DNA from: a virus
Length of the DNA: 64,000 bases
Direction: 5' to 3' (one strand)
Virus record (IMG/VR): IMGVR_UViG_3300035698_010295
Span: 1 to 64,000 of that record
Shown here piece by piece: positions 20,329-37,857 of this stretch (the first letter of the stretch is position 1; each line of letters opens with the position of its first letter). Under the pieces are notes generated by a model. That model was not told the origin of the DNA and made no database searches. It saw only the letters and a list, made by a program, of their open reading frames with translations. The translations under genes were made by a program, and so were the position numbers.

Positions 20329-20576
20329 TTTGCCACCTTAGATTCAGCCATGTCTTTAGTTTTCTGCCATCTTTCAGCAAACGCCAATCGCCATATATTG
20401 ATAGCTCCCAATCCGACACATAAACCAATTGCGAGTAGTGATACACCCTTCAAAACTGACTCTTTCACAAAATAGCCACCGAGAAATATCTCAGACGCTG
20501 ACACAAATGAGAATAGAGTCGCAAAATTATTAATTGTATCTTGTAACCCATCAATTACCGCCTTATTCCTTATCAA
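20325..20576 (-). CDS. Membrane protein
   Basis: Two hydrophobic segments; start position uncertain. Confidence 0.4.
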   Translation of the reverse strand: MIRNKAVIDGLQDTINNFATLFSFVSASEIFLGGYFVKESVLKGVSLLAIGLCVGLGAINIWRLAFAERWQKTKDMAESKVAK

Positions 20577-21372
20577 AAGGTAATGATCTACATTGAAAAC
20601 CAGCTGCGGATTTATGGCCACCACCACCCCTATTCTTAGCTATAAAAGCAACATCAATTTTATTAGATCGTAAACTAACTGTCCAATTAGAGCCATCATT
20701 ATAATAAAAAATCACAATATCATAATTATCAATACGACCCTCTATCCGATTACTACTAATCATAGGACGATTTACTGCCCAACAGTTATTACCCTCAAAA
20801 ACACAATCAAACCCTATTTTATTTAAGAGTTTGTCTTCCTGTGCCTTATATTGCTCTATAATTTTTCCTTGTTCTACTAGTTCATCAATATTGATTTGAT
20901 ACATATACTTTAACCAAAACTCAGATGTTGGTGATGTATCATACAATTGACTACCGGCGAAAAAATATTTAGTTTCATCACCAAAATCCCATTTCCATAT
21001 ATCACGATCTGCTACTAAGTTTATTGATTTAGGTACTACTTTATTGGGATAAATATACCTCCATGTTAAGATACAAGCTGCATCTTCTATTGATCTTACT
21101 CCATCAATTTCTTTGGGGAAACCAACATATTTTTCAAGAGCCGTTTTATGGTGATCAATCCAAACAACGTTTGTTGTTATTTCCAAGAGTTTTAACATTT
21201 CTGATGGTTCGATAGAGTAATCTACGATCCATATTTTTTCGTTTGGTTCTATGGCTTCAAATGGAAATGGTGTTCCATAATTGATCTCTCGCATCTCACA
21301 TTCATGGTACTGGTCATAGACACAAAATCCAGATGCTTGTCCATCTAGATCATCATGGTGAAAACACTTCAT
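20563..21372 (-). CDS. DHH/DHHA1 phosphoesterase (NrnB/nanoRNase-like)
   Basis: HHDDLDG, VDYS, IDHH, SLRS, GGGGH..AAG motifs. Confidence 0.9.
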   Translation of the reverse strand: MKCFHHDDLDGQASGFCVYDQYHECEMREINYGTPFPFEAIEPNEKIWIVDYSIEPSEMLKLLEITTNVVWIDHHKTALEKYVGFPKEIDGVRSIEDAACILTWRYIYPNKVVPKSINLVADRDIWKWDFGDETKYFFAGSQLYDTSPTSEFWLKYMYQINIDELVEQGKIIEQYKAQEDKLLNKIGFDCVFEGNNCWAVNRPMISSNRIEGRIDNYDIVIFYYNDGSNWTVSLRSNKIDVAFIAKNRGGGGHKSAAGFQCRSLPFDKE

Positions 21373-21707
21373 AATATATTCTCCAATTTTCTTACGATAG
21401 CCTCAGCTTCATCACTAATTTCAAGGGATGTTATGTATCTGCGTTGTGCTAATGTACATAATCTCGCTAATAGTAAATGTGTGGCCTCATGTTTTGCTAT
21501 TAATTTTGGATCTCTATGATCGTTATACACAGAAGAAAAATAAACTGAAGCACATTTGCCAGATTCATCAATATGAATCTCAGCATAATTATCTTCTAAT
21601 GGTTCAAAATTAAAATCTATACAATATTCTTGTAAACCTAGTTTATTTGCTAATTCTTTAAATGTCTTTTTAAATAATACAAAGTCTTTTTTAGGTACTT
21701 TCTTCAT
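21369..21707 (-). CDS. HExxH zinc-metallopeptidase-like protein
   Basis: AKHEATHLL with a downstream E. Confidence 0.6.
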   Translation of the reverse strand: MKKVPKKDFVLFKKTFKELANKLGLQEYCIDFNFEPLEDNYAEIHIDESGKCASVYFSSVYNDHRDPKLIAKHEATHLLLARLCTLAQRRYITSLEISDEAEAIVRKLENIL

Positions 21708-22179
21708 TTAGAACCTTAGTTTCAAGTTGTTCAGCGGTAATTTCAATGGTAGCATTAGCTACATTACGCAGTTCATTACAAACACCACACGCAATAATCA
21801 TAACTTTTTTATCTAATTCTTTAAGGTAAGTTACCAATGGAACAAGATCTCTACTAGCTGAACCTAGGATAACCTGATCCAATGCATCAAGATTACGAAT
21901 AATATCCACTGCAATATTAACACCTAAAGTTGTGTTTCTATTCCTAGTAGTGTGTATAAACTTTGTTGAAAATCCAAGAGCATTGAGTCTTCTTATGAAA
22001 GCTTTAGCTTCATTGTCTATTTTTACACCAAAAGCTCGACAAACTGTTATTTCACCACCTTCAGGTAGTTCTTCACAAACAGTATTTAAATATTTTGAAT
22101 AATCAATCTTTTGTTCTTCAAAAGCACGACCTACACAATAATAAAGATTTGATACATCAACAAATAAACCTACTCGCAT
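21691..22179 (-). CDS. NYN/LabA-DUF88 (PIN-like) domain protein
   Basis: FVDVSNL, NIAVD, SASRDLVP, ELRNVAN. Some canonical acidic residues appear substituted. Confidence 0.75.
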   Translation of the reverse strand: MRVGLFVDVSNLYYCVGRAFEEQKIDYSKYLNTVCEELPEGGEITVCRAFGVKIDNEAKAFIRRLNALGFSTKFIHTTRNRNTTLGVNIAVDIIRNLDALDQVILGSASRDLVPLVTYLKELDKKVMIIACGVCNELRNVANATIEITAEQLETKVLNEEST

Positions 22180-24102: not shown

Positions 24103-24516
24103 TCATGATAAGTACCTCGCAAATCTTTTAGCTGCTGTTTTAGCCTGGCCAAGTGTTTTAATTGTTATAGTGCCGTGTTCACCAAACGGTGTTATGATCT
24201 TATTGCCTTTAAATGTAGATGAAAATAACTTATCACCAATTGAGAAACCAAAAATACCACGATGACTCCAACCAAACCAAGCTTGTAAAGATTCACTAAA
24301 TCCTATTTGAGCAACAGTCCCCAATATATCCGCAGATTGCAGTTGACGTAAGTCACGCTTTTTACATAGTGCTCTAGCCACATTAGATGAGCCAATATAA
24401 GACCCATCTAAATCTGAATAGCAACTAACCAATTCATAGCTACTCTTACCTGATTTAATAATCTCTCTACGGTAAAAGTAACCAGGGTAATGGCGTTCAA
24501 ATTTAATTTTTTTCAT
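24103..24516 (-). CDS. Hypothetical phage protein
   Basis: 137 aa; WFGWSHR motif; ATGA coupling. Confidence 0.65.
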   Translation of the reverse strand: MKKIKFERHYPGYFYRREIIKSGKSSYELVSCYSDLDGSYIGSSNVARALCKKRDLRQLQSADILGTVAQIGFSESLQAWFGWSHRGIFGFSIGDKLFSSTFKGNKIITPFGEHGTITIKTLGQAKTAAKRFARYLS

Positions 24517-26169: not shown

Positions 26170-26254
26170 TGCCCGAAGTGGGAGTCGAACCCACACGAGA
26201 GTTAATCTCAAGGGATCTTAAATCCCTTGTGTCTGCCAATTCCACCATTCGGGC
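26170..26254 (-). tRNA. tRNA-Leu (TAA)
   Basis: Acceptor GCCCGAA/TTCGGGC, D loop GGAATTGGCAGAC, anticodon arm AGGGA-TTTAAGA-TCCCT, long variable arm, T arm GTGGG-TTCGACT-CCCAC, A73. No encoded CCA. Confidence 0.92.
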
Positions 26255-26603
26255 TATTAGCTTCTTTTAATAATTCATCTAATTCTTTAAAAGTTGGATC
26301 AGTTTGTTTAAGATGATCTATATACTTAGTATTATCTTTAATAGCACACTGTATCTTATTTGTAATATTAACATCTTTAATAGTTTGTTGTATGATTCTA
26401 TCTTGAAGCTCACCAATTATATCACGTAATGCATGAGATAACATGGTATTAACTTCTTCTTCAATATGATCTGTGTTTCTGATACAACAAGCAGATGTAC
26501 TAGTTAAATGTTTACCATCAATACTAGCATTAACTATGAGTTTGACTGTAATATCATAATTAATCTCAAAACATAATTGGTGTTCTATTTCTATATTAAT
26601 CAC
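26208..26603 (-). CDS. Hypothetical protein (3' end overlaps tRNA-Leu)
   Basis: GTGA-coupled to the Ro60 stop. Confidence 0.55.
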   Translation of the reverse strand: MINIEIEHQLCFEINYDITVKLIVNASIDGKHLTSTSACCIRNTDHIEEEVNTMLSHALRDIIGELQDRIIQQTIKDVNITNKIQCAIKDNTKYIDHLKQTDPTFKELDELLKEANSPNGGIGRHKGFKIP

Positions 26604-28159
26604 TTTGAAAACTCCGATATTACATTGGGGGTGGCAGTATCAAAACCCACAACATCTAACATACCAGGATCGCTTGGATCAGCTATTGAAAACTCAGTGG
26701 GTTCCATAGACACTACAATTAATTTAGCATAGATACCTGTTTTCTTGCGATACTTTAATAAAGCTTGTACTGGGTGAATACCACCACACCAAGTTTCATT
26801 ATCGGTATAGATAACAAACGTGTCTACACTTATATTGTGTTCTAAAGCATAGATCATTGGTAATGAGCAGTCTGTCCTACCAAAAGGTAAACCTTTTACC
26901 GTTTTTACAACATCATCAAGTCTTTGTCTAGGAGATATATTTAATGTTGTTAATCTACTTGTAAAAGCTGTAATCACATAATTAGGCTCCACACTAGCAG
27001 TGATTAGAGCCATAGCTGCTGTGCCAATCCGTGGTGAAATACCAGTCATACCTGCAAGATCAGTGTGACTCATTGAACTTGATACATCTAAGGCTAACAT
27101 TGTACGTTTACACGTTGGTTTAACAGTGTCAAAAGAAAGATAGAAAGCTTGATCGAGTGCATCAATAATACTGGTGTTTGGACTCCAAGATAATGAGCCT
27201 TTAAAACCATGTCCCTTAGTGTATGTGTTTAGTGCCACAAGTATAGAGAGTGGATGTACTCTAGCCTTTTTGAGTTGATCTTTGTCTGTTAATCTTTGAA
27301 CTATTAGATTAGCAGACATTGGACCTATAGTACCGACAGATGTCATTTTGCCAAGGTTGCGAATCATAGCAGTCAGTGGCATTTTTTCTAGCAGAGCATC
27401 CCAGATATTTTTGTTGTTTAGCATCTCAGTAGGGATAGCTTCACGAGGTAAATTGTATGCCCTGATCATGTTATATAGGATTTCTGACTCACAAATTTGT
27501 GCATCTTCATACGCTCGTACTATGGCAGGTGCAGTTGGTGTAAGTTTGCCTTGTGTTATCCAGTGATACAAAGATTGATATGTTGAATTTGGTGGTATGG
27601 GATGACTCTTACGTAGAGCATCTCTATGTGACCAGCCATCTCTTTGTCGATATTTTATACATTGGTAAGCTAAAGCATCTACATCCTTGTCATTATACCA
27701 ATTAGCTACAGCAGTACGTAATAAGCGACCCCACCCGCGGAATTGTTGAACAAATTCCAAGAAATGAAATAGATGTGTACCTATTCTGGCAACCTTGGGC
27801 AACTGAGCCAAGGCGTAGTTCTTTTCATCACCAATACTAGCTGCCATAGCCAAAGCAAAAAGGCAAGGGTCATTTTTAGGTGCCCTGCCTTCAGTACTAA
27901 TCTCAGTGATTTTGTCAATCGTTCTTTTAGCATCCAAATCTAAGCAACGTAAAACACACTTAGCATTATCGCTGGTGAGCTTATGTTCTTTAACATAGTA
28001 AGTGCCACCCTCTGAGCCTAGGATTAAGAATCTCTCAAGACGGTACCAATCACTAATTGACCAGACAAAGCCTCCGGCATTGTTGCCAACCTGGTTAGAA
28101 CCAGGGATTGCCTCCGATTGTGGTGTTACTAGTGTGCTAAAATTCTGGTAAGTCTTCAT
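26600..28159 (-). CDS. rsr: Ro60 / TROVE-vWA RNA-binding protein (Rsr-like)
   Basis: NNAGGFV, RFLILGSEGGTYY, GWGR, KYRQRDGWSHRD, MPLTAMIRNLGKM, RVHP, MIDAS DVSSSM, TDCSLPM, TDNETW, DVVGFD; AGGAG SD. Confidence 0.96.
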   Translation of the reverse strand: MKTYQNFSTLVTPQSEAIPGSNQVGNNAGGFVWSISDWYRLERFLILGSEGGTYYVKEHKLTSDNAKCVLRCLDLDAKRTIDKITEISTEGRAPKNDPCLFALAMAASIGDEKNYALAQLPKVARIGTHLFHFLEFVQQFRGWGRLLRTAVANWYNDKDVDALAYQCIKYRQRDGWSHRDALRKSHPIPPNSTYQSLYHWITQGKLTPTAPAIVRAYEDAQICESEILYNMIRAYNLPREAIPTEMLNNKNIWDALLEKMPLTAMIRNLGKMTSVGTIGPMSANLIVQRLTDKDQLKKARVHPLSILVALNTYTKGHGFKGSLSWSPNTSIIDALDQAFYLSFDTVKPTCKRTMLALDVSSSMSHTDLAGMTGISPRIGTAAMALITASVEPNYVITAFTSRLTTLNISPRQRLDDVVKTVKGLPFGRTDCSLPMIYALEHNISVDTFVIYTDNETWCGGIHPVQALLKYRKKTGIYAKLIVVSMEPTEFSIADPSDPGMLDVVGFDTATPNVISEFSK

Positions 28160-28178
28160 AATAGTCTCCTAAATAAAA

Positions 28179-28249
28179 TGGATAAGTTGTGTTAATAGAT
28201 ATGCGTGGGTACGAACCCACTATCTTGGTAACCTATTAACTTCGACCCA
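28179..28249 (-). ncRNA. Y RNA-like Y1 (Ro-binding stem plus a tRNA T-arm in the loop)
   Basis: TGGGTCGAA-GTTAATAGG-TTACC..GTGGG-TTCGTA-CCCAC..TCTATTAAC-ACAACTTATCCA. Confidence 0.8.
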
Positions 28250-28250
28250 A

Positions 28251-28374
28251 ACCAGAGGGCAGGACTCGAACCTGCGACCACGCTATTAAAATTAGATAAC
28301 CAACAATTGCCGACCCAAAAGGATAAGTTATTAACTGTCGAGTTTACGTGCTCTGCCAACTGAGCTACCTCTGG
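28251..28374 (-). ncRNA. tRNA-Y RNA chimera Y2 (tRNA body with a permuted Ro stem at the anticodon position)
   Basis: Acceptor CCAGAGG/CCTCTGG, D arm GCTC-AGTTGGCA-GAGC, T arm GCAGG-TTCGAGT-CCTGC; insert TCGACAGTT-AATAACTTATCC-TTTT-GGGTCGGC-AATTGTTGG-TTATCT. Confidence 0.85.
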
Positions 28375-28377
28375 TAA

Positions 28378-28502
28378 TGTGCGGGGTGGGAGTCGAACCC
28401 ACTATCTTCAGACCCTAGATAATCAATAACCTTCGACCCTATTGGGTTAGTTTATGGCTATCGAGTGTTTATTCTGACGCTCAACCGTTGAGCTTCCCGC
28501 AC
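28378..28502 (-). ncRNA. tRNA-Y RNA chimera Y3
   Basis: Acceptor GTGCGGG/CCCGCAC, D arm GCTC-AACGGTT-GAGC, anticodon stem TCAGA/TCTGA, T arm GTGGG-TTCGACT-CCCAC; insert TCGATAGCC-ATAAACTAACCC-AATA-GGGTCGAA-GGTTATTGA-TTATCT. Confidence 0.85.
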
Positions 28503-28506
28503 TACA

Positions 28507-28566
28507 GACGAGCAAGTTATTGTTCTGGGGATTCTTAAGCAGATAACCCAGAACATTCGGCTCGTC
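28507..28566 (-). ncRNA. Minimal Y RNA-like Y4
   Basis: GACGAGCCGAA-TGTTCTGGG-TTATCT...CCCAGAACA-ATAACTTGCTCGTC. Confidence 0.85.
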
Positions 28567-28579
28567 ACAATTTAATCAA

Positions 28580-28819
28580 TCATAGGTTTAATAGGGTATT
28601 GATTATAACTTCTTTGACTTTTTCATCAAGTGCTTCAACTTCTGCTAATAAGGCAGCAGGAAAGATAATTTCTTTATCACTACTGTAAGTGCTTGAGTTA
28701 AAAGTTTCTGTAGCTACAATTTTATCACCCAATTTAACAGAGTAAGTGCCCATCAACTTTTTTTTATTAGTGTCTTTTTCTTCATAACGCCATGATTTTG
28801 TTTCAATAGTTAGATTCAT
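28580..28819 (-). CDS. Hypothetical protein within the Y RNA locus
   Basis: 79-aa ORF, ATGA-coupled. Confidence 0.6.
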   Translation of the reverse strand: MNLTIETKSWRYEEKDTNKKKLMGTYSVKLGDKIVATETFNSSTYSSDKEIIFPAALLAEVEALDEKVKEVIINTLLNL

Positions 28820-29130
28820 CTTCCCTCACAATCTGAACAAGCACAACCAACACTGTGATTTGAGTCCGCTGTTAATATTACTCCAATATGTTTTAAAAGT
28901 TTGTTTAGTTGATCATCTGTGTGATCATACCAAGGTGGATTAATTATTAGTCGATCATCTTTAACAAACACATGAAATTTACATGATCGCCCTTTTACGT
29001 AATCCATGTGTATTGATTTATCAGGTTGAATAAACGCTAATGCTTCGTCAGCTGTAAGTTGATCACCCTGTTGAAAGTGTAGTAGACCCAATCCTAGTGG
29101 TTTAGAAAGGTCATACACTTTTTTAATCAT
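28816..29130 (-). CDS. Hypothetical protein within the Y RNA locus
   Basis: 104 aa; MDYVKGRSCK and a C-terminal H..GCACSDC metal-binding motif. Confidence 0.6.
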   Translation of the reverse strand: MIKKVYDLSKPLGLGLLHFQQGDQLTADEALAFIQPDKSIHMDYVKGRSCKFHVFVKDDRLIINPPWYDHTDDQLNKLLKHIGVILTADSNHSVGCACSDCEGR

Positions 29131-29337
29131 TTGATTTGGTCAACATTTGTAACATCAATCATAATAGTTTCCTTTAATAATTATTCTTCGTCATCATCAC
29201 CAATTAACAATGAATCCAAACACACCACACAGTAATTTGGATCATCAAATTCATCTAACTCACAATCACAAATTTGACAATTTGCCATAACTATCTCCTT
29301 AATATTTAATAAAACAGTGACCATTGAAAACAAAATA

Positions 29338-29396
29338 AGGGCAAGTGATTTATTGTGGGAGAAATCACCTAAAGATAACCCACAACATTCGGCCCT
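29338..29396 (-). ncRNA. Minimal Y RNA-like Y5
   Basis: AGGGCCGAA-TGTTGTGGG-TTATCT...CCCACAATA-AATCACTTGCCCT, followed by a T-rich tract. Confidence 0.85.
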
Positions 29397-29399
29397 AAC

Positions 29400-29463
29400 G
29401 GCCCCTTGTGGTGTAGCTCCACTATAGCGTATATTTTCATATACATTGGTTCAACCAGGGGCC
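29400..29463 (-). ncRNA. Mini-cloverleaf (tRNA-like) RNA
   Basis: Closing stem GGCCCCT/AGGGGCC with three arms, including GTATAT-GAAA-ATATAC and GTGG-AGCTACA-CCAC. Confidence 0.5.
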
Positions 29464-29472
29464 TTAAAAAAG

Positions 29473-29550
29473 TAGGGCAAAATTATGTCAATTGGTAATT
29501 GAGATTAGCTTTAAAAACTGTTATGTGATAACCAACTAACTTCGGCCCTA
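29473..29550 (-). ncRNA. Y RNA-like Y6
   Basis: TAGGGCCGAA-GTTAGTTGG-TTATCA...CCAATTGAC-ATAATTTTGCCCTA, then CTTTTTT. Confidence 0.8.
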
Positions 29551-29763
29551 ACATTTAACTTGGTTCCCCCAAACAGAACATCACCCCTTATTCTTTTCGG
29601 ACATAGCTACTACGTCAATACCCTGTTGGCGTACCATTTCTTCCTTAGTGATTCTGCGAGCAATGATGTTGACCTCAAGATCTGCGTCAATATTTACACC
29701 ATCTTCATTAAAATACTTGTTTGTTTGTTCGATTCTGTGAGTAGACATAATTAATACCTTTAA

Positions 29764-34778: not shown

Positions 34779-34973
34779 TTTGGCACCACAGTTTGCTCCA
34801 TAGCATCTTTGATGCCTTCAAAAAATTGATTTAATAAACCAATTTTGACACCTTTACAAAAGATGAAATTTTCATTTTTATCAAACCAAGCACACCTTGT
34901 AATGACAAACTTTTTTTGAGTTAAAAGGGAAATCAAAGCCATGACTACAATTTATCTTTACTCCATCAATCAT
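34775..34973 (-). pseudogene. Frameshifted paralog of 34593..34778
   Basis: MIDGVKINC...VCHYK, then one extra G (~34895), then CAWFDKNENFIFCKGVKIG, which matches CTKVCAWF...C...IG of the neighbour. Confidence 0.45.
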
Positions 34974-37857
34974 TACTTTTTTCATCCAACACCTTTATAA
35001 TATTACCTAAACTCAAACTTTGTAATTGTTTCTTTTGCTTCAAATTATCCAGTACGTATTTATCAGTAGGTAAGTGAAAAAGATCAATAATAGTGGCACC
35101 TCTATTATTATCCATACCAGGACGATGTATCCTGTCTTCAGATTGAAGCCTATACATGCCATTGAAATCATTACTATAGTATACAATAGATGGTGAGGCT
35201 GTAAAAGTAAGACCTTCAGATCCAGAAGCAGGGTGACCAATAACACACAACAAAGGAAAAGCATTACGAAATTCATTGTATTTTGGATGCGATAAATCCA
35301 TAGCTTGTAAGGCTTCATTAAGGTCATAACTATTTCCCTCTTTATCGGAAACAGTCCATCCTTGGCCGTCAATCCTTATTACGATCCAGCCAGCTTCTTT
35401 AACCATTTTACAAAGATGATCTATAGATGCTGTAAAACCGGCATAGAAAACGAGTCTAGCGACTTCCATATGTTCATCAAGTAAATTAAGTACAACATCA
35501 TTTTTAGGGCAGTCAATAAAGGTTGAGTCACGCTCATAAATAGATTGAATTCCAGTGCTACCACAATTTGGACATGGAATTTCTTCATATTCAAGAGGAT
35601 CAGTGTCTGGCTTAGGATGTTGTATTGTTTTGTTCCCGAGACAAAGACTACATGTTTCGGTTCCAGTTTTGACTTTAGTATATTGAAAACCATCACTTAA
35701 CTCTCGTAAGAGTGTTAGTGCTTTAATTGTGCTTGATGCTGTATTAGCGAGTGTTCTAGCAACATTTAAAATCGATTGTGTTGGTTTCACCTCAATTATG
35801 CGATACTGTTTATCCGGAAGATCAAAACAATCTTTTTTAAATTGGACTAAAACAAGTCCTTTAAGTCGTTTACTTAATTTTGAAACTTCATTTATTGATC
35901 TTGTAAACTCGTGATACCCTGGCTCAGTTAGATTGTGATTTATTGCATCTTTAAACTGACCACAAATTTTACATTTATTATCATCATCCCACCATGTAAT
36001 TAGCTTTGGATATGATCCACCATATTGTGCTTCACACATCTCTGTGAGACACAATCTATTACGAAATTTAGCTTCAGTTCCCTCTCTTAAAAAACCGGGC
36101 ATTGCTACTTCACAATTATGTGCGATAAATCCATTAGCAGAAAATTTATGTATACCTGGAACTTCTATATCATAGACATCTTCTATAGAATCTTGTTCAA
36201 CAGATTCTACTGTTGCTACTGGTGTGCTGGTCCAATTATGTCTATTTTTGATTCTCTTAATCAAGCGTTCTTTTTTCTTTGTTTGATTAAAATCAATAAT
36301 ATATTGAAATTTAATAGCTTCAGTATTTATTATTTGAATTTCATAACAAAAATCTGATGTATTAATTTTGCGTCCATCAATATATGATATACCTACATTT
36401 TTTTTAATTCTTATCTTACAATAAATACCTAAAGACTGCAATAATAATTGAATTTTATAGATTCTATCTTTATCTACTTGTGCTAATGTTATTCTTAAAG
36501 TATCTTTAGAAACACTACCATCAGCATCAAACATACCTCTTAAAAATCCAATAATAAAACTACTAGATGCAGTCATTATATTGTGGTCAATAATCTTTTT
36601 TGGTGTGATACCCCACTCACGAACAATATCATTAATTCTACCACCATGAATTATAAGGGCTTCACCACTAGAAGTAATATTATCTTGTTCAAGTATTTTA
36701 CATACTTCTGGTATCAAGCAAAAATCACCCTCAAAAAATTGAAGGCGACTATAGTAACCACTTTCTTTTTTAGTAACATTACCATCACCAAACAACAACC
36801 CTAAAATGTAACCTTCATTTTCTGATCCTGTTCCCTCCCAGTGATTGTATGATTCTGGCGTTGAAATTTTGATTTCATCACCAATTTCTAGCTCACATAA
36901 TTTTCTCCAAAGCTTTAAGCCATCATAATTAACAAGGAATTTTTGATCTTCTGTAGCTCTTACAGAATACCCTTCATTAGTGTTAATCTTATAAAGTTGC
37001 TTAGTTCCAGTTTTAAAGAAACCATTAGTCTTTACTTTGTGGTTATCAACTAATATATTAGTCTTTTGATGAATTAACTCTTTAATTTGTTTTAGACCTT
37101 GATCCGTAGTTATCCAAGTATCATCAGAAAAGCATTGCCAAAACCAATCAGTTGGGGCCTTTGGGGCAGGTGTTCCTGTTAAACAGATAACAAACCCTTT
37201 TTCTTTGTGTTCTAATCGTACACTATTAGCCAAGTGTGATGCTGCTTGTGAACGTTGTGAAGTGGAATTTTTAATTCGAGCACTTTCATCAAACACAACA
37301 CCTTGTGGGGCAACTCCATCCCATGACTCTAAATCAATACGAAACTTATCATAAGTTAAGAGTCGCGGTTTTACCCGCGACTCCCACTTCAACAATTCCA
37401 ACTCAACACTTTTAAGGGCTGATTTAGGAGCTATGTACCACCAGTCTTTTAGACCAGATTGCTCCATAACTTCAATAGCTGCAAGTGATTTTCCAACACC
37501 CATCTCACCAGCAAACATACAATAGTGTCTGGTTAGTATGTGCCTTACTGCTTCAACTTGATGTTTAAACAATGGGCGGTCAGTGACACAATTTAATAAA
37601 TCAGCATCATAAGGAGCATATGGATTTTCATTTTTAAGGTATTTTAATTGGAAAACATTTCTCGGTGTAAGAGGTGCACTCCAAATTTTACGTGGATTAT
37701 TATCAAAGCCATGCCATTTTGCACCTGACATATTTTTGATTTCATCCATCAACTTGCGATTAAAACGAAACTTAAAATATATTCTACCATCTTCAACAGC
37801 AACTTGAGCAGGTATTAAACGATTTTCTGCTCGTAACTTCATCATTTGATAATCCAT
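34966..37857 (-). CDS. SNF2-family helicase containing an intein
   Basis: EMGVGKS, FDESA, LTGTP, GSEGLT, QSEDRIHR. Confidence 0.92.
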   Translation of the reverse strand: MDYQMMKLRAENRLIPAQVAVEDGRIYFKFRFNRKLMDEIKNMSGAKWHGFDNNPRKIWSAPLTPRNVFQLKYLKNENPYAPYDADLLNCVTDRPLFKHQVEAVRHILTRHYCMFAGEMGVGKSLAAIEVMEQSGLKDWWYIAPKSALKSVELELLKWESRVKPRLLTYDKFRIDLESWDGVAPQGVVFDESARIKNSTSQRSQAASHLANSVRLEHKEKGFVICLTGTPAPKAPTDWFWQCFSDDTWITTDQGLKQIKELIHQKTNILVDNHKVKTNGFFKTGTKQLYKINTNEGYSVRATEDQKFLVNYDGLKLWRKLCELEIGDEIKISTPESYNHWEGTGSENEGYILGLLFGDGNVTKKESGYYSRLQFFEGDFCLIPEVCKILEQDNITSSGEALIIHGGRINDIVREWGITPKKIIDHNIMTASSSFIIGFLRGMFDADGSVSKDTLRITLAQVDKDRIYKIQLLLQSLGIYCKIRIKKNVGISYIDGRKINTSDFCYEIQIINTEAIKFQYIIDFNQTKKKERLIKRIKNRHNWTSTPVATVESVEQDSIEDVYDIEVPGIHKFSANGFIAHNCEVAMPGFLREGTEAKFRNRLCLTEMCEAQYGGSYPKLITWWDDDNKCKICGQFKDAINHNLTEPGYHEFTRSINEVSKLSKRLKGLVLVQFKKDCFDLPDKQYRIIEVKPTQSILNVARTLANTASSTIKALTLLRELSDGFQYTKVKTGTETCSLCLGNKTIQHPKPDTDPLEYEEIPCPNCGSTGIQSIYERDSTFIDCPKNDVVLNLLDEHMEVARLVFYAGFTASIDHLCKMVKEAGWIVIRIDGQGWTVSDKEGNSYDLNEALQAMDLSHPKYNEFRNAFPLLCVIGHPASGSEGLTFTASPSIVYYSNDFNGMYRLQSEDRIHRPGMDNNRGATIIDLFHLPTDKYVLDNLKQKKQLQSLSLGNIIKVLDEKSND
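36115..37134 (-). mobile_element. Intein with LAGLIDADG homing endonuclease (340 aa)
   Basis: Starts CFSDDTWITT, ends VYDIEV...NGFIAHN followed by Cys+1; contains LGLLFGDG and LRGMFDADG. Confidence 0.93.

What the first reader, a model, noticed from the sequence alone, without database searches (positions are those of the whole stretch)
26600..29550. Phage Ro60 gene preceded by an array of six Y-RNA-like genes in three architectures
Seen in sequence: six minus-strand elements (28179-28249, 28251-28374, 28378-28502, 28507-28566, 29338-29396, 29473-29550) share one module: G(G/A)G(C/T)CG(A/G)(A/C), a 9-bp stem, TTA(T/C)C, paired with stem', an A-rich bulge and (C/T)T(T/A)RYYC. The 9-bp stems differ in sequence but always pair (e.g. 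TGTTCTGGG/CCCAGAACA vs TGTTGTGGG/CCCACAATA, a compensatory C-G to G-C swap), so structure rather than sequence is conserved. Four are packed 1-4 nt apart and end about 20 nt before the Ro60 start codon. Established: Ro60/Rsr binds a bulged helix in Y RNAs; bacterial and some phage rsr genes have adjacent Y RNAs, including tRNA-mimicking YrlA; in Deinococcus the Y RNA tethers Rsr to PNPase. Inference: this phage has a modular kit in which one Ro60 ring is loaded with six interchangeable RNA adaptors carrying different effector loops (none, T-arm only, whole tRNA). Possible roles are recruiting different host RNA enzymes or countering RNA-damaging defences. I do not know of an array of this size and diversity, but cannot check that here.
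Basis: partly seen in the sequence, partly recalled or inferred. Interest (0 to 1): 0.92.

Follow-up and report, generated by a model that had tools for sequence, protein, structure and literature searches.

The report
Six Y RNAs beside phage Ro60
An uncultured phage carries a gene for the RNA-surveillance ring protein Ro60 preceded by six genes for its partner "Y" RNAs, two of them built as whole tRNAs with the Ro60-docking hairpin grafted into the anticodon arm, which is a rearranged and apparently undescribed form of the known bacterial tRNA-mimicking Y RNA.

Summary
Six minus-strand elements share one module and are the only six motif hits in the 77.7-kb virus record (about 0.5 expected). 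The 519-aa ORF downstream is a full-length Ro60. The module is the Ro-binding bulged helix of Y RNAs. It recurs on the Ro60 strand in viral and cellular Ro60 loci and covaries strongly.

There are four architectures, not three:
- three plain hairpins;
- one hairpin with a T-arm;
- one tRNA body whose anticodon loop is replaced by the module;
- one complete tRNA-Lys(UUU)-like cloverleaf with the module inserted into the 5' strand of its anticodon stem.

The two tRNA-shaped RNAs are circular permutations of the known YrlA: the acceptor end is open and the Ro stem is capped. I found 99 such chimeras at 60 bits or more across the sampled loci. Their anticodon loops keep the canonical shape, but the triplet drifts faster than the body, which argues for mimicry and not decoding.

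Six elements is the top of a continuous 1-6 range, not a unique size. Ro60 binding and expression are untested.

This scan has already reported the same RNA class on at least 16 other genomes. I found no paper describing it.

Verdict: real; a new variant of a known kind.

The parts
26600..28159 (-). Ro60 (TROVE + vWA) gene, 519 aa
   Evidence: Pfam vWA_Ro60 2.5e-62 and TROVE 1.9e-46. Full-length match to Xenopus Ro60 1YVP at E = 3.6e-125, D. radiodurans Rsr 2NVO at 7.6e-124, and human RO60.
28177..28251 (-). Y RNA 1 (proximal). Ro-binding module whose apical part is a T-arm-like hairpin (GUGGG-UUCGUAC-CCCAC). It ends about 20 nt before the Ro60 ATG and is followed by a T-rich tail (UUAUUU) and the AGGAG ribosome-binding site.
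   Evidence: R1 47.1 bits. Fold of -19.6 kcal/mol, z = -2.65. Rfam sbRNA model 31 bits, sub-threshold. Sequence.
28252..28374 (-). Y-tRNA chimera, type i. A complete cloverleaf: 7-bp acceptor, D arm, T arm, and a 5-bp anticodon stem with loop A-U-UUU-A-A. The Y module (about 51 nt) is inserted between tRNA positions 28 and 29.
   Evidence: Rfam tRNA 43.3 bits with a 64-nt insert. R2 109.6 bits. After clean in-silico excision, ARAGORN calls a standard tRNA-Lys(UUU). Inner stem CUA/UAG and loop AUUUUAA.
28379..28502 (-). Y-tRNA chimera, type ii. A tRNA body with a full 5-bp anticodon stem (UCAGA/UCUGA) whose loop is wholly replaced by the capped Y module. It has a C-A mismatch where the other copies have the bulged C.
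   Evidence: Rfam tRNA 48.3 bits with a 59-nt insert. R2 65.9 bits, not in the seed. Fold of -45.3 kcal/mol, z = -4.57. No anticodon-type hairpin.
28507..28566 (-). Y RNA 4. A plain 60-nt stem-bulge hairpin with a 7-bp terminal stem.
   Evidence: R1 62.1 bits. Fold of -27 kcal/mol, z = -6.55.
28602..28629 (-). Promoter-like site (TTGATG-16-TATAAT) about 35 nt upstream of the four-element proximal cluster.
   Evidence: Consensus scan, 10 of 12 matches. The number of such sites in the region is not above chance, so this is weak evidence.
29336..29398 (-). Y RNA 5. A plain hairpin followed by UUUUGUUUU.
   Evidence: R1 49.7 bits. Rfam Y_RNA 24.2 bits, where the alignment shows GGGCCGAAUGUUGUGGGUUAU against the consensus GGUCCgAagguaGUGGGUUAu. 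T-rich tail.
29400..29463 (-). 64-nt cloverleaf-like fold between Y5 and Y6. Possibly a processing signal; whether it belongs to the system is uncertain.
   Evidence: Fold of -24.7 kcal/mol, z = -3.1. No relatives by nhmmer in the fetched loci. Not hit by R2 or by Rfam tRNA.
29472..29551 (-). Y RNA 6 (distal). A hairpin with a 31-nt apical loop, followed by UUUUUU.
   Evidence: R1 43.5 bits. Rfam sbRNA 26.9 and Y_RNA 18.8 bits, both sub-threshold. T-rich tail.

Best explanation
The six elements are genes for the Y RNAs of the phage's own Ro60.

Shared handle. Each RNA carries the same handle. It is a helix in which GGG(U/C) pairs with (A/G)(C/U)CC, a C is left bulged, and G-A pairs with U-U. 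Above that sit a variable but always paired 9-bp stem and then UUAYC. This is the Ro-binding helix of Y RNAs, so each RNA should dock on the outer face of the Ro60 ring.

Different distal parts. They are a plain loop (three RNAs), a T-arm, a tRNA body without an anticodon loop, and a complete tRNA-Lys(UUU)-like body.

Processing (inferred). The proximal four are packed 0-4 nt apart and are probably made as one precursor together with, or just ahead of, the Ro60 mRNA. Host RNase P and tRNA 3'-end enzymes would cut at the open acceptor ends of the two tRNA-shaped members. That matures them as single stable pieces, with CCA added by the host, and releases the flanking plain Y RNAs. The two distal Y RNAs end in U-tracts and look like separate short transcription units.

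Function (inferred, by analogy with Rsr/Y RNA/PNPase and with phage phiLo). The RNAs gate the Ro60 cavity and tether the ring to host partners, namely PNPase and proteins that recognise tRNA shape.

What is shown: the sequence module, its covariation, its linkage to Ro60, the tRNA architecture and the permutation. What is inferred: binding, processing and partner recruitment.
For: Motif: 6 hits and no others in the record, against 0.46 expected.

Independent models: the Rfam Y_RNA and sbRNA alignments match both strands of the helix. Five of the six copies carry the GNCGAAN0-1G motif that Chen et al. 2014 tie to Rsr binding (PMC4201824); 28295-28316 has GGC for GAA.

Linkage to Ro60: all 108 R1 hits in the viral loci plus the window, and 108 of 111 in 80 cellular loci, lie on the Ro60 strand next to the gene.

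Covariation of the linear module: 87.1% of cells paired against 63.3% in shuffles. Score 0.672 against 0.251, with 0 of 500 shuffles as high. Slid registers give 0.10-0.22.

Covariation of the chimeras (99 sequences): 91.0% paired against 70.4%, score 0.600 against 0.204.
- Acceptor 99.4% paired.
- D and T stems 100%.
- Outer anticodon pairs 94.8%.
- Y helices 80.6% and 92.7%.

tRNA nature:
- Rfam tRNA scores 43-48 bits.
- Clean excision yields standard tRNAs in 50 of 84 unique chimeras, including the window's.
- The canonical anticodon-loop signature appears without being selected for: U33 in 53 of 56, R37 in 51 of 56.
- A CCA is encoded in 12 of 99, where about 1.5 is expected.

Precedents: M. 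smegmatis YrlA is cut by RNase P and receives CCA in vivo, and YrlB has a T arm (PMC4201824). Phage phiLo Ro60 binds two upstream Yrls and host PNPase (PMC12135203).
Against: - There is no expression or binding data, and no RNA run was listed.
- The promoter-like sites are no more frequent than chance.
- The type ii element has a C-A mismatch instead of the bulged C, so its affinity for Ro60 could differ.
- The record (83% complete) encodes no PNPase partner that I looked for, and no RtcB or CCA-adding enzyme. All partners would have to be host-encoded.
- E-values of R1 and R2 on five of the six window elements are inflated, because those elements were in the seed alignments.
Confidence: 0.78

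Rival explanations
1. The type i element (and its relatives) is a working tRNA gene, here tRNA-Lys(UUU) for an AT-rich phage. The Y module would be an intron-like insert, either removed before use or tolerated on the ribosome.
For: - Clean excision gives a canonical 5-bp anticodon stem and a standard tRNA by ARAGORN.
- The loop keeps U33, R37 and A38.
- Some relatives encode CCA.
- The phage also carries ordinary tRNA-His and tRNA-Leu(UAA) genes.
Against: - No splicing route for such an insert is known in bacteria; it forms a three-way junction, not a bulge-helix-bulge or a group I intron (my knowledge).
- Among 15 chimera pairs with at least 90% identical bodies, only 3 share an anticodon. 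The triplet changes at 0.38 per nt against 0.18 for the other loop positions. That is the reverse of real tRNA orthologues.
- Ser and Leu anticodons sit on bodies with short variable loops, and an Ala(AGC) body has G3-C70 rather than G3-U70. Anticodon and identity elements therefore do not match.
- The insert is the Ro-binding module, and the genes always sit beside Ro60.
Confidence: 0.08
2. The elements are mainly cis-acting. They would be terminator, attenuator or leader structures that control Ro60 expression (for example Ro60 binding its own leader), not stable trans-acting RNAs.
For: - The proximal element ends about 8 nt before the Ro60 ribosome-binding site.
- U-rich tracts follow 26% of unique linear modules, against 3.8% background.
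Against: - Two elements lie about 1.2-1.4 kb upstream, behind three small ORFs.
- In some relatives the modules lie downstream of Ro60.
- The tRNA bodies with open acceptor ends point to excision as stable RNAs.
- Homologous RNAs in M. smegmatis, Salmonella and D. radiodurans are stable and Rsr-bound (PMC4201824).

Autoregulation could still coexist with a trans-acting role.
Confidence: 0.07
3. The tandem pair 28252-28502 should be read in the canonical YrlA register. That is: 5' Ro strand of the upstream unit, its T arm, an acceptor hairpin across the boundary, the D arm of the downstream unit, and that unit's 3' Ro strand. On this reading it is an ordinary YrlA.
For: - The Rfam YrlA model gives its best local hit (27.8 bits) across the boundary, at 28325-28429.
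- By my hand count, the upstream 5' strand can pair with the downstream 3' strand at 8 of 9 positions, 4 of them G-U.
Against: - The score is far below the gathering score of 69.
- By my hand count, the would-be acceptor hairpin pairs at only 2 of 7 positions, while each unit's own acceptor pairs 7 of 7.
- In six tandem pairs, each unit's own acceptor is 7/7 and the cross acceptor is 3-6/7. Own Y helix averages 7.7 of 9, cross 6.2, background 5.2 (the window pair was ordered the wrong way round in that script).
- The acceptor in the tRNA register is 99.4% paired with covariation at all 7 pairs across 99 sequences.
- True YrlA-register elements do exist in actinophages and look different.
Confidence: 0.03

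Closest known systems
YrlA (Y RNA-like A; Rfam RF02553; Chen et al. 2014, PMC4201824), known from 254 bacteria and 22 phages
   Same: - A Ro-binding 5' motif GNCGAAN0-1G.
- YUAY followed by a hairpin.
- tRNA-like T arm, acceptor stem and D arm with the conserved tRNA nucleotides.
- Encoded next to Ro60 on the same strand.

The fold of a canonical example, Gordonia phage Cashline L172:2338-2470, shows the same five parts.
   Different: The order is circularly permuted. In YrlA the RNA ends lie at the Ro stem and the acceptor is a closed hairpin (a UUCG tetraloop in Cashline). Here the acceptor end is open, as in a tRNA, and the Ro stem is capped by a loop.

Rfam YrlA scores only 27.8 bits, against a gathering score of 69. 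Both strands of the metazoan-type Ro helix are recognisable here, whereas Chen et al. report only the 5' strand in the Salmonella and M. smegmatis RNAs.

The hairpin that Chen et al. call the V arm behaves here as a true anticodon arm: a 7-nt loop with U33 and R37, and a separate 4-5-nt variable loop.
[quoted passage not shown]
   Same: Processed YrlA has an open, CCA-tailed acceptor end, like the form encoded directly here. YrlB is a Y RNA with a T arm only, like 28177-28251.
   Different: The mycobacterial RNA becomes two pieces held together by base pairing. The phage form would be one continuous piece.
Thermus phage phiLo Ro60 with Yrl1 and Yrl2 (PMC12135203)
   Same: A phage Ro60 with Y-like RNAs just upstream that carry the CGAA motif. 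Binding to the phage Ro60 and to host PNPase has been shown in vitro.
   Different: There are two simple RNAs and no tRNA-shaped members are described. Here there are six RNAs in four architectures.
Metazoan Y RNAs (RF00019) and nematode stem-bulge RNAs (RF01656)
   Same: The bulged-C helix and the 5' strand GGNCCGA-N-(9 nt)-UUAUC align position by position with the Rfam consensus. The RNAs end in U-tracts.
   Different: All scores are below the gathering thresholds. The hosts are bacterial viruses. No tRNA module is known in metazoan Y RNAs.
D. radiodurans Yrn1 (PMC4201824)
   Same: The D-like element precedes the T arm, and both strands of the Ro helix are retained.
   Different: In Yrn1 the Ro stem occupies the acceptor position and the ends lie there. 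Here the Ro stem branches from the anticodon stem.
Engineered 'tRNA scaffold' chimeras and naturally permuted tRNA-like genes such as two-piece tmRNA (from my own knowledge, not checked here)
   Same: Type ii is the natural equivalent of inserting an RNA of interest in place of the anticodon loop, so that the cell processes and stabilises it like a tRNA. Permuted tmRNA genes show that such gene rearrangements do occur.
   Different: These are analogies only. There is no homology and no link to Ro60.

Membership tests
Y RNA (Ro60-associated RNA) | Encoded beside a Ro60/Rsr gene on the same strand | tested here: met
   All six lie on the Ro60 strand, within 1.4 kb upstream. The same holds for all 108 R1 hits in the viral set and 108 of 111 in the cellular set.
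Y RNA (Ro60-associated RNA) | Conserved bulged helix with the GGUCCGA / GNCGAAN0-1G motif | tested here: met
   Five of six copies match GNCGAAN0-1G; 28295-28316 has GGC for GAA. The Rfam Y_RNA and sbRNA alignments match both strands. In the closing helix, the G-U pair next to the bulge is present in 77 of 88 sequences.
Y RNA (Ro60-associated RNA) | Stems supported by covariation | tested here: met
   0 of 500 shuffles reach the observed covariation score, and slid registers collapse.
Y RNA (Ro60-associated RNA) | Physically bound by Ro60; a discrete stable transcript | not testable with these tools
   No RNA run was listed. This needs RIP, EMSA or Northern blots.
Y RNA (Ro60-associated RNA) | Reaches the Rfam Y_RNA gathering score | tested here: not met
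   24.2 and 18.8 bits, against a gathering score of 38. That model is built on metazoan sequences.
YrlA (RF02553) | Reaches the Rfam gathering score | tested here: not met
   27.8 bits against 69, and only across the boundary between two units.
YrlA (RF02553) | Order is Ro 5' strand, T arm, closed acceptor hairpin, D arm, Ro 3' strand, with the RNA ends at the Ro stem | tested here: not met
   The order here is acceptor 5', D arm, Ro 3' strand, cap, Ro 5' strand, (anticodon hairpin), T arm, acceptor 3'. A canonical example is folded for comparison.
YrlA (RF02553) | tRNA-like D and T arms with the conserved tRNA nucleotides | tested here: met
   In alignment A5, U8, G10, A14, G18 and A21 are invariant, and so are G, U, C and A within the T-loop motif GGUUCRA. 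Rfam tRNA scores 43-48 bits.
tRNA | Cloverleaf that reaches the Rfam tRNA gathering score | tested here: met
   43.3 and 48.3 bits, against a gathering score of 29, with a 59-64-nt insert.
tRNA | Contiguous anticodon arm of about 17 nt | tested here: not met
   In type i the stem is split by a 51-nt insert. In type ii the loop is replaced.
tRNA | Anticodon conserved among orthologues and consistent with identity elements | tested here: not met
   Only 3 of 15 near-identical body pairs share an anticodon. Ser, Leu and Ala anticodons sit on bodies that lack the matching identity elements.
tRNA | Aminoacylated and used in translation | not testable with these tools
   Needs acid-gel Northern blots or a charging assay.

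The most novel reading that the evidence does not exclude
The type i 'Y-tRNAs' are not just stabilised by a tRNA scaffold. On this reading they use a real, exposed anticodon loop as a variable recognition surface. Because they keep the canonical loop shape while the triplet diversifies within a constant body, they could deliver Ro60 (and the exonuclease bound to it) in an anticodon-specific way. Targets could be proteins or RNAs that read anticodon loops: synthetases, modification enzymes, the ribosomal A site, or anticodon nucleases of host defence. Alternatively they could act as Ro60-guarded decoys for such nucleases. A corollary is that the 'V arm' of YrlA is a relic anticodon arm, and that Y-RNA tRNA mimics descend from tRNAs that acquired a Ro handle.
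Probability: 0.15. Interest if true: 0.85.

Novelty: new variant of a known kind. Interest (0 to 1): 0.6.

Why it matters
What the tRNA-like domain of bacterial Y RNAs does has been an open question since 2014.

This locus and its many relatives show the tRNA mimic in its most complete state: a free acceptor end, an intact anticodon arm, and in some relatives an encoded CCA. They also show it alongside stripped-down versions in a single array. That gives a natural series of constructs for asking which tRNA features matter for Ro60 function.

It suggests how YrlA arose, namely from a tRNA carrying an inserted Ro handle that was later permuted.

It also exposes an annotation gap. Rfam's YrlA model misses these genes, tRNA finders may call them intron-containing or odd tRNAs, and deposited actinophage genomes leave the Ro60-upstream RNAs unannotated.

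For phage biology, it points to a widespread, RNA-based way of redirecting a host RNA-decay or surveillance machine.

Tried and rejected
- Near-identity search of the locus in deposited phage genomes: no match.
- RtcB (PF01139) and CCA-adding enzyme (PF01743) in the virus record: none found, in an 83%-complete record.
- Pfam and PHROGs on the small ORFs between and around the RNA clusters: nothing informative.
- Mini-cloverleaf at 29400-29463: no sequence relatives in the fetched loci, and not recognised by R2 or by Rfam tRNA. I left its role open.
- Reading the tandem pair in the canonical YrlA register: rejected (and my hand count).
- My first ad-hoc regex missed the GAGCCGAA variant, and my pairing rule mis-assigned the partner of 28379-28502. 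I replaced both with covariance models.
- The inner anticodon stem looked weak (55% paired) in the mixed alignment A7. That is explained by types i and ii being mixed, and was resolved by the anchored analysis.
- The two Wolin-lab reviews (PMC10870794, PMC6047535) are not held. I therefore cannot exclude that the permuted form is mentioned there.
- Promoter and terminator scan: counts are not above chance.

Full report
WHAT IS THERE. The window is the first 64 kb of a 77,667-bp linear IMG/VR virus record estimated to be 83% complete. The ORF at 26600-28159 (minus strand, 519 aa) is a full-length Ro60. Pfam gives vWA_Ro60 at 2.5e-62 and TROVE at 1.9e-46. It matches the solved structures of Xenopus Ro60 (1YVP, 3.6e-125), D. 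radiodurans Rsr (2NVO) and human RO60 over their whole length. Upstream on the same strand, the motif GRGYCGRM-N9-TTAYC occurs exactly six times. It occurs nowhere else in the window or the rest of the record, against 0.46 expected.

THE SHARED MODULE. Each element folds into the same unit. A closing helix pairs GGG(U/C) with (A/G)(C/U)CC and leaves the next C bulged. G-A then pairs with U-U. An A-rich asymmetric loop follows, then a 9-bp stem whose sequence differs in every copy but always pairs, then UUAYC. This matches the Ro-binding helix of Y RNAs as I know it. Independent Rfam models, although below threshold, align both strands position by position: Y_RNA at 24.2 and 18.8 bits, and the nematode stem-bulge RNA family at 31 and 26.9 bits. 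Five of the six copies contain GNCGAAN0-1G, the motif that Chen et al. 2014 link to Rsr binding (PMC4201824).

COVARIATION AND LINKAGE. I fetched 85 viral loci encoding a Ro60 relative (44-57% identity; 375 candidates exist in IMG/VR) and 80 cellular loci, mostly MAGs of Chloroflexota, Myxococcota, Gemmatimonadota and Armatimonadota (more than 568 candidates).
- A covariance model of the linear module (R1) finds 108 hits in the viral set plus the window, all on the Ro60 strand and clustered just upstream or just downstream of the gene. It finds 111 in the cellular set, 108 of them on the Ro60 strand.
- On the structure-aware alignment, 87.1% of cells are paired against 63.3% in shuffles. The covariation score is 0.672 against 0.251, with 0 of 500 shuffles as high. 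Slid registers give 0.10-0.22.
- Caveat: four of the window's elements were in the R1 seed, so their own scores are partly by construction. The motif count and the Rfam hits are independent of that.

THE tRNA-SHAPED ELEMENTS. Rfam's tRNA model scores 28251-28374 at 43.3 bits and 28378-28502 at 48.3 bits, each with a 59-64-nt insertion in the anticodon region. In both, the Y module is circularly permuted. The 3' strand comes first, the closing helix is capped by a tetraloop, and the 9-bp stem opens toward the tRNA body.

The two differ. In 28379-28502 (type ii) a full 5-bp anticodon stem (UCAGA/UCUGA) encloses the module, and there is no anticodon loop. In 28252-28374 (type i) the module is a clean insertion between tRNA positions 28 and 29. 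The last nucleotides of UUAUC plus the next ones form the inner three pairs (CUA/UAG) of an anticodon stem. The two outer pairs (CG/CG) are made with the nucleotides just after the D arm.

HOW GENERAL THIS IS.
- A model of the chimera (R2, 124 positions, 35 pairs) finds 99 chimeras at 60 bits or more across the cellular loci and 18 viral loci. 28379-28502, which was not in the seed, scores 65.9 bits.
- Every helix covaries: 91.0% paired overall against 70.4% in shuffles, and score 0.600 against 0.204.
- Per helix: acceptor 99.4%, D and T stems 100%, outer anticodon pairs 94.8% (with CG, GC, AU and UA all represented), and the two Y helices 80.6% and 92.7%.
- I anchored on the outer anticodon pair and read fixed offsets, so nothing was selected on loop content. 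In 56 of 97 chimeras all three inner pairs form, against 14.9 expected. In those 56, position 33 is U in 53, position 37 is a purine in 51, position 38 is A in 46, and position 32 is a pyrimidine in 49. There are 29 different triplets at positions 34-36.
- Clean excision yields a standard tRNA in 50 of 84 unique chimeras.
- Types i and ii occur as adjacent pairs in the window and in L028, L036, L076 and L084.

DECODER OR MIMIC. The anticodon is the least conserved part. Of 15 chimera pairs with at least 90% identical bodies, only 3 share the triplet. Differences run at 0.38 per nucleotide in the triplet against 0.18 at the other four loop positions. Paralogues in one array share a body but carry different triplets (L132, L147, L168). 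Ser and Leu triplets sit on bodies with 4-5-nt variable loops, and an Ala(AGC) body has G3-C70. By the established identity rules for SerRS, LeuRS and AlaRS, those bodies would not be charged to match. I therefore read the anticodon arm as a retained shape, not a decoding device. An active recognition role is not excluded (see the novel case).

RELATION TO KNOWN Y RNAs.
- Phage Ro60 genes with adjacent Y-like RNAs are published. YrlA-type RNAs are reported in 254 bacteria and 22 phages (PMC4201824). Thermus phage phiLo has two upstream Yrls that bind the phage Ro60 and host PNPase (PMC12135203).
- 352 deposited phage genomes, mostly actinophages, encode a homologue. The three I opened leave the 350-640-nt Ro60-upstream gap unannotated.
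- In Gordonia phage Cashline the element folds as a canonical YrlA: terminal Ro stem with free ends, UUACC, a hairpin with a 7-nt loop, a T arm, an acceptor hairpin closed by UUCG, a D arm, and the Ro 3' strand. R1 spans it, Rfam YrlA scores best there, and R2 fits only with a broken acceptor.
- The window's chimeras contain the same five parts in circularly permuted order. Rfam YrlA reaches only 27.8 bits, against a gathering score of 69, and only across the boundary of the two units. That alternative register is rejected. By my hand count, the would-be acceptor hairpin pairs at 2 of 7 positions against 7 of 7 for each unit's own acceptor. The other tandem pairs behave the same way.
- Chen et al. 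note that a conserved YUAY 'begins the V loop'. Here the hairpin after UUAY is an anticodon arm, and a normal variable loop follows it. YrlA's V arm is therefore probably the homologue of the anticodon arm (inference).
- M. smegmatis YrlA is opened by RNase P and CCA-tailed in vivo, and YrlB carries a T arm. The phage therefore encodes directly, and in one piece, what mycobacteria produce by cleavage. Its T-arm-only element also has a precedent.
- I found no paper describing the open-acceptor topology, but two key reviews were not available.

ARRAY SIZE. I counted non-overlapping R1 and R2 hits per locus, using 3.5-4 kb flanks and stringent thresholds, so these are lower bounds. Viral loci hold 1-5 elements and cellular loci 1-6. 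The window's six is the largest in the viral sample and equals two cellular loci, L132 and L116. A looser regex census gave up to 8. The array is at the top of a continuous range, and its composition (plain, T-arm, type ii, type i) recurs elsewhere.

LIKELY MECHANISM (inferred).
- The four proximal RNAs are 0-4 nt apart. They follow a promoter-like site at 28629-28602, which is weak evidence, and end at a T-rich tail just before the Ro60 ribosome-binding site.
- The open acceptor ends of the two chimeras should be cut by host RNase P and by 3'-end enzymes. That would mature them and release the flanking plain Y RNAs.
- An encoded CCA in 12 of 99 chimeras, where about 1.5 is expected, supports tRNA-type 3' maturation.
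- The two distal RNAs end in U-tracts. Such tracts follow 26% of unique linear modules, against 3.8% background.
- All six should dock on Ro60 through the common handle and differ in what their distal part engages.

CONTEXT. The locus lies among replication, nucleotide-metabolism and counter-defence-type genes: a Tad6 Thoeris inhibitor, an NYN RNase, a DHH phosphoesterase, RNR, DNA polymerase A and ParB. No RtcB or CCA-adding enzyme is encoded in the record.

EARLIER SCAN NOTES. First-reader notes on this genome had already proposed the permuted topology, the mini-cloverleaf and the T-arm element. Follow-ups on at least 16 other genomes reported the same class beside Ro60 genes in phages, bacteria and giant viruses, and likewise found no publication. 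I treated these as leads and tested the claims here independently. My results agree.

VERDICT. The Y-RNA reading is well supported, while function is inferred. This is a new variant (a circular permutation with an intact anticodon arm) of a known kind. It is of solid interest to Ro/Y RNA and phage-RNA specialists, but it is not categorically new.

Noticed in passing
window 24103-24516 (-), 21691-22179 (-), 20563-21372 (-): A Tad6-type Thoeris inhibitor (95 bits), an NYN-domain RNase and a DHH/DHHA1 phosphoesterase lie a few kb downstream of Ro60. This gives the neighbourhood a counter-defence and RNA-metabolism flavour.
   Followed up: no
window 29400-29463 (-): A 64-nt cloverleaf-like fold lies between Y5 and Y6: a 7-bp closing stem and three small arms, -24.7 kcal/mol, z = -3.1. 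It has no sequence relatives in the fetched loci and is not recognised as a tRNA. It may be a processing signal.
   Followed up: partly
window 34966-37857 (-): An SNF2-type helicase gene is interrupted by an intein that carries a LAGLIDADG homing endonuclease.
   Followed up: no
window 26170-26254 (-) and ORF 26208-26603 (-): A canonical tRNA-Leu(UAA) lies just downstream of Ro60 and overlaps the 3' end of a 131-aa ORF with no family match. The ORF call is probably too long or spurious.
   Followed up: no
L172 (Gordonia phage Cashline), L173 (Microbacterium phage FuzzBuster), L174 (Mycobacterium phage Catera): These deposited phage genomes annotate a 'Ro-like RNA binding protein'. They leave the 350-640-nt upstream gap without any RNA feature, although it holds YrlA-type elements.
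   Followed up: partly
L132:2740-3427, L147:2756-3185, L168:2240-3222, L141:5346-6033: Cellular Ro60 loci (Chloroflexia and Polyangiaceae MAGs) carry two to four tandem Y-tRNA chimeras. In L132, L147 and L168 the bodies are nearly identical but the anticodon triplets differ.
   Followed up: partly
L008:2903-2960: A weak match to the type-P1 twister ribozyme (45.6 bits, gathering score 67.2) lies upstream of a phage Ro60 locus.
   Followed up: no
window 28252-28374 vs L098:3282-3407: The tRNA body of the window's type i chimera is 95% identical to that of a groundwater Chloroflexi-bin contig, whose loop reads AUGGGAA. The two Ro60 proteins are only about 55% identical.
   Followed up: no
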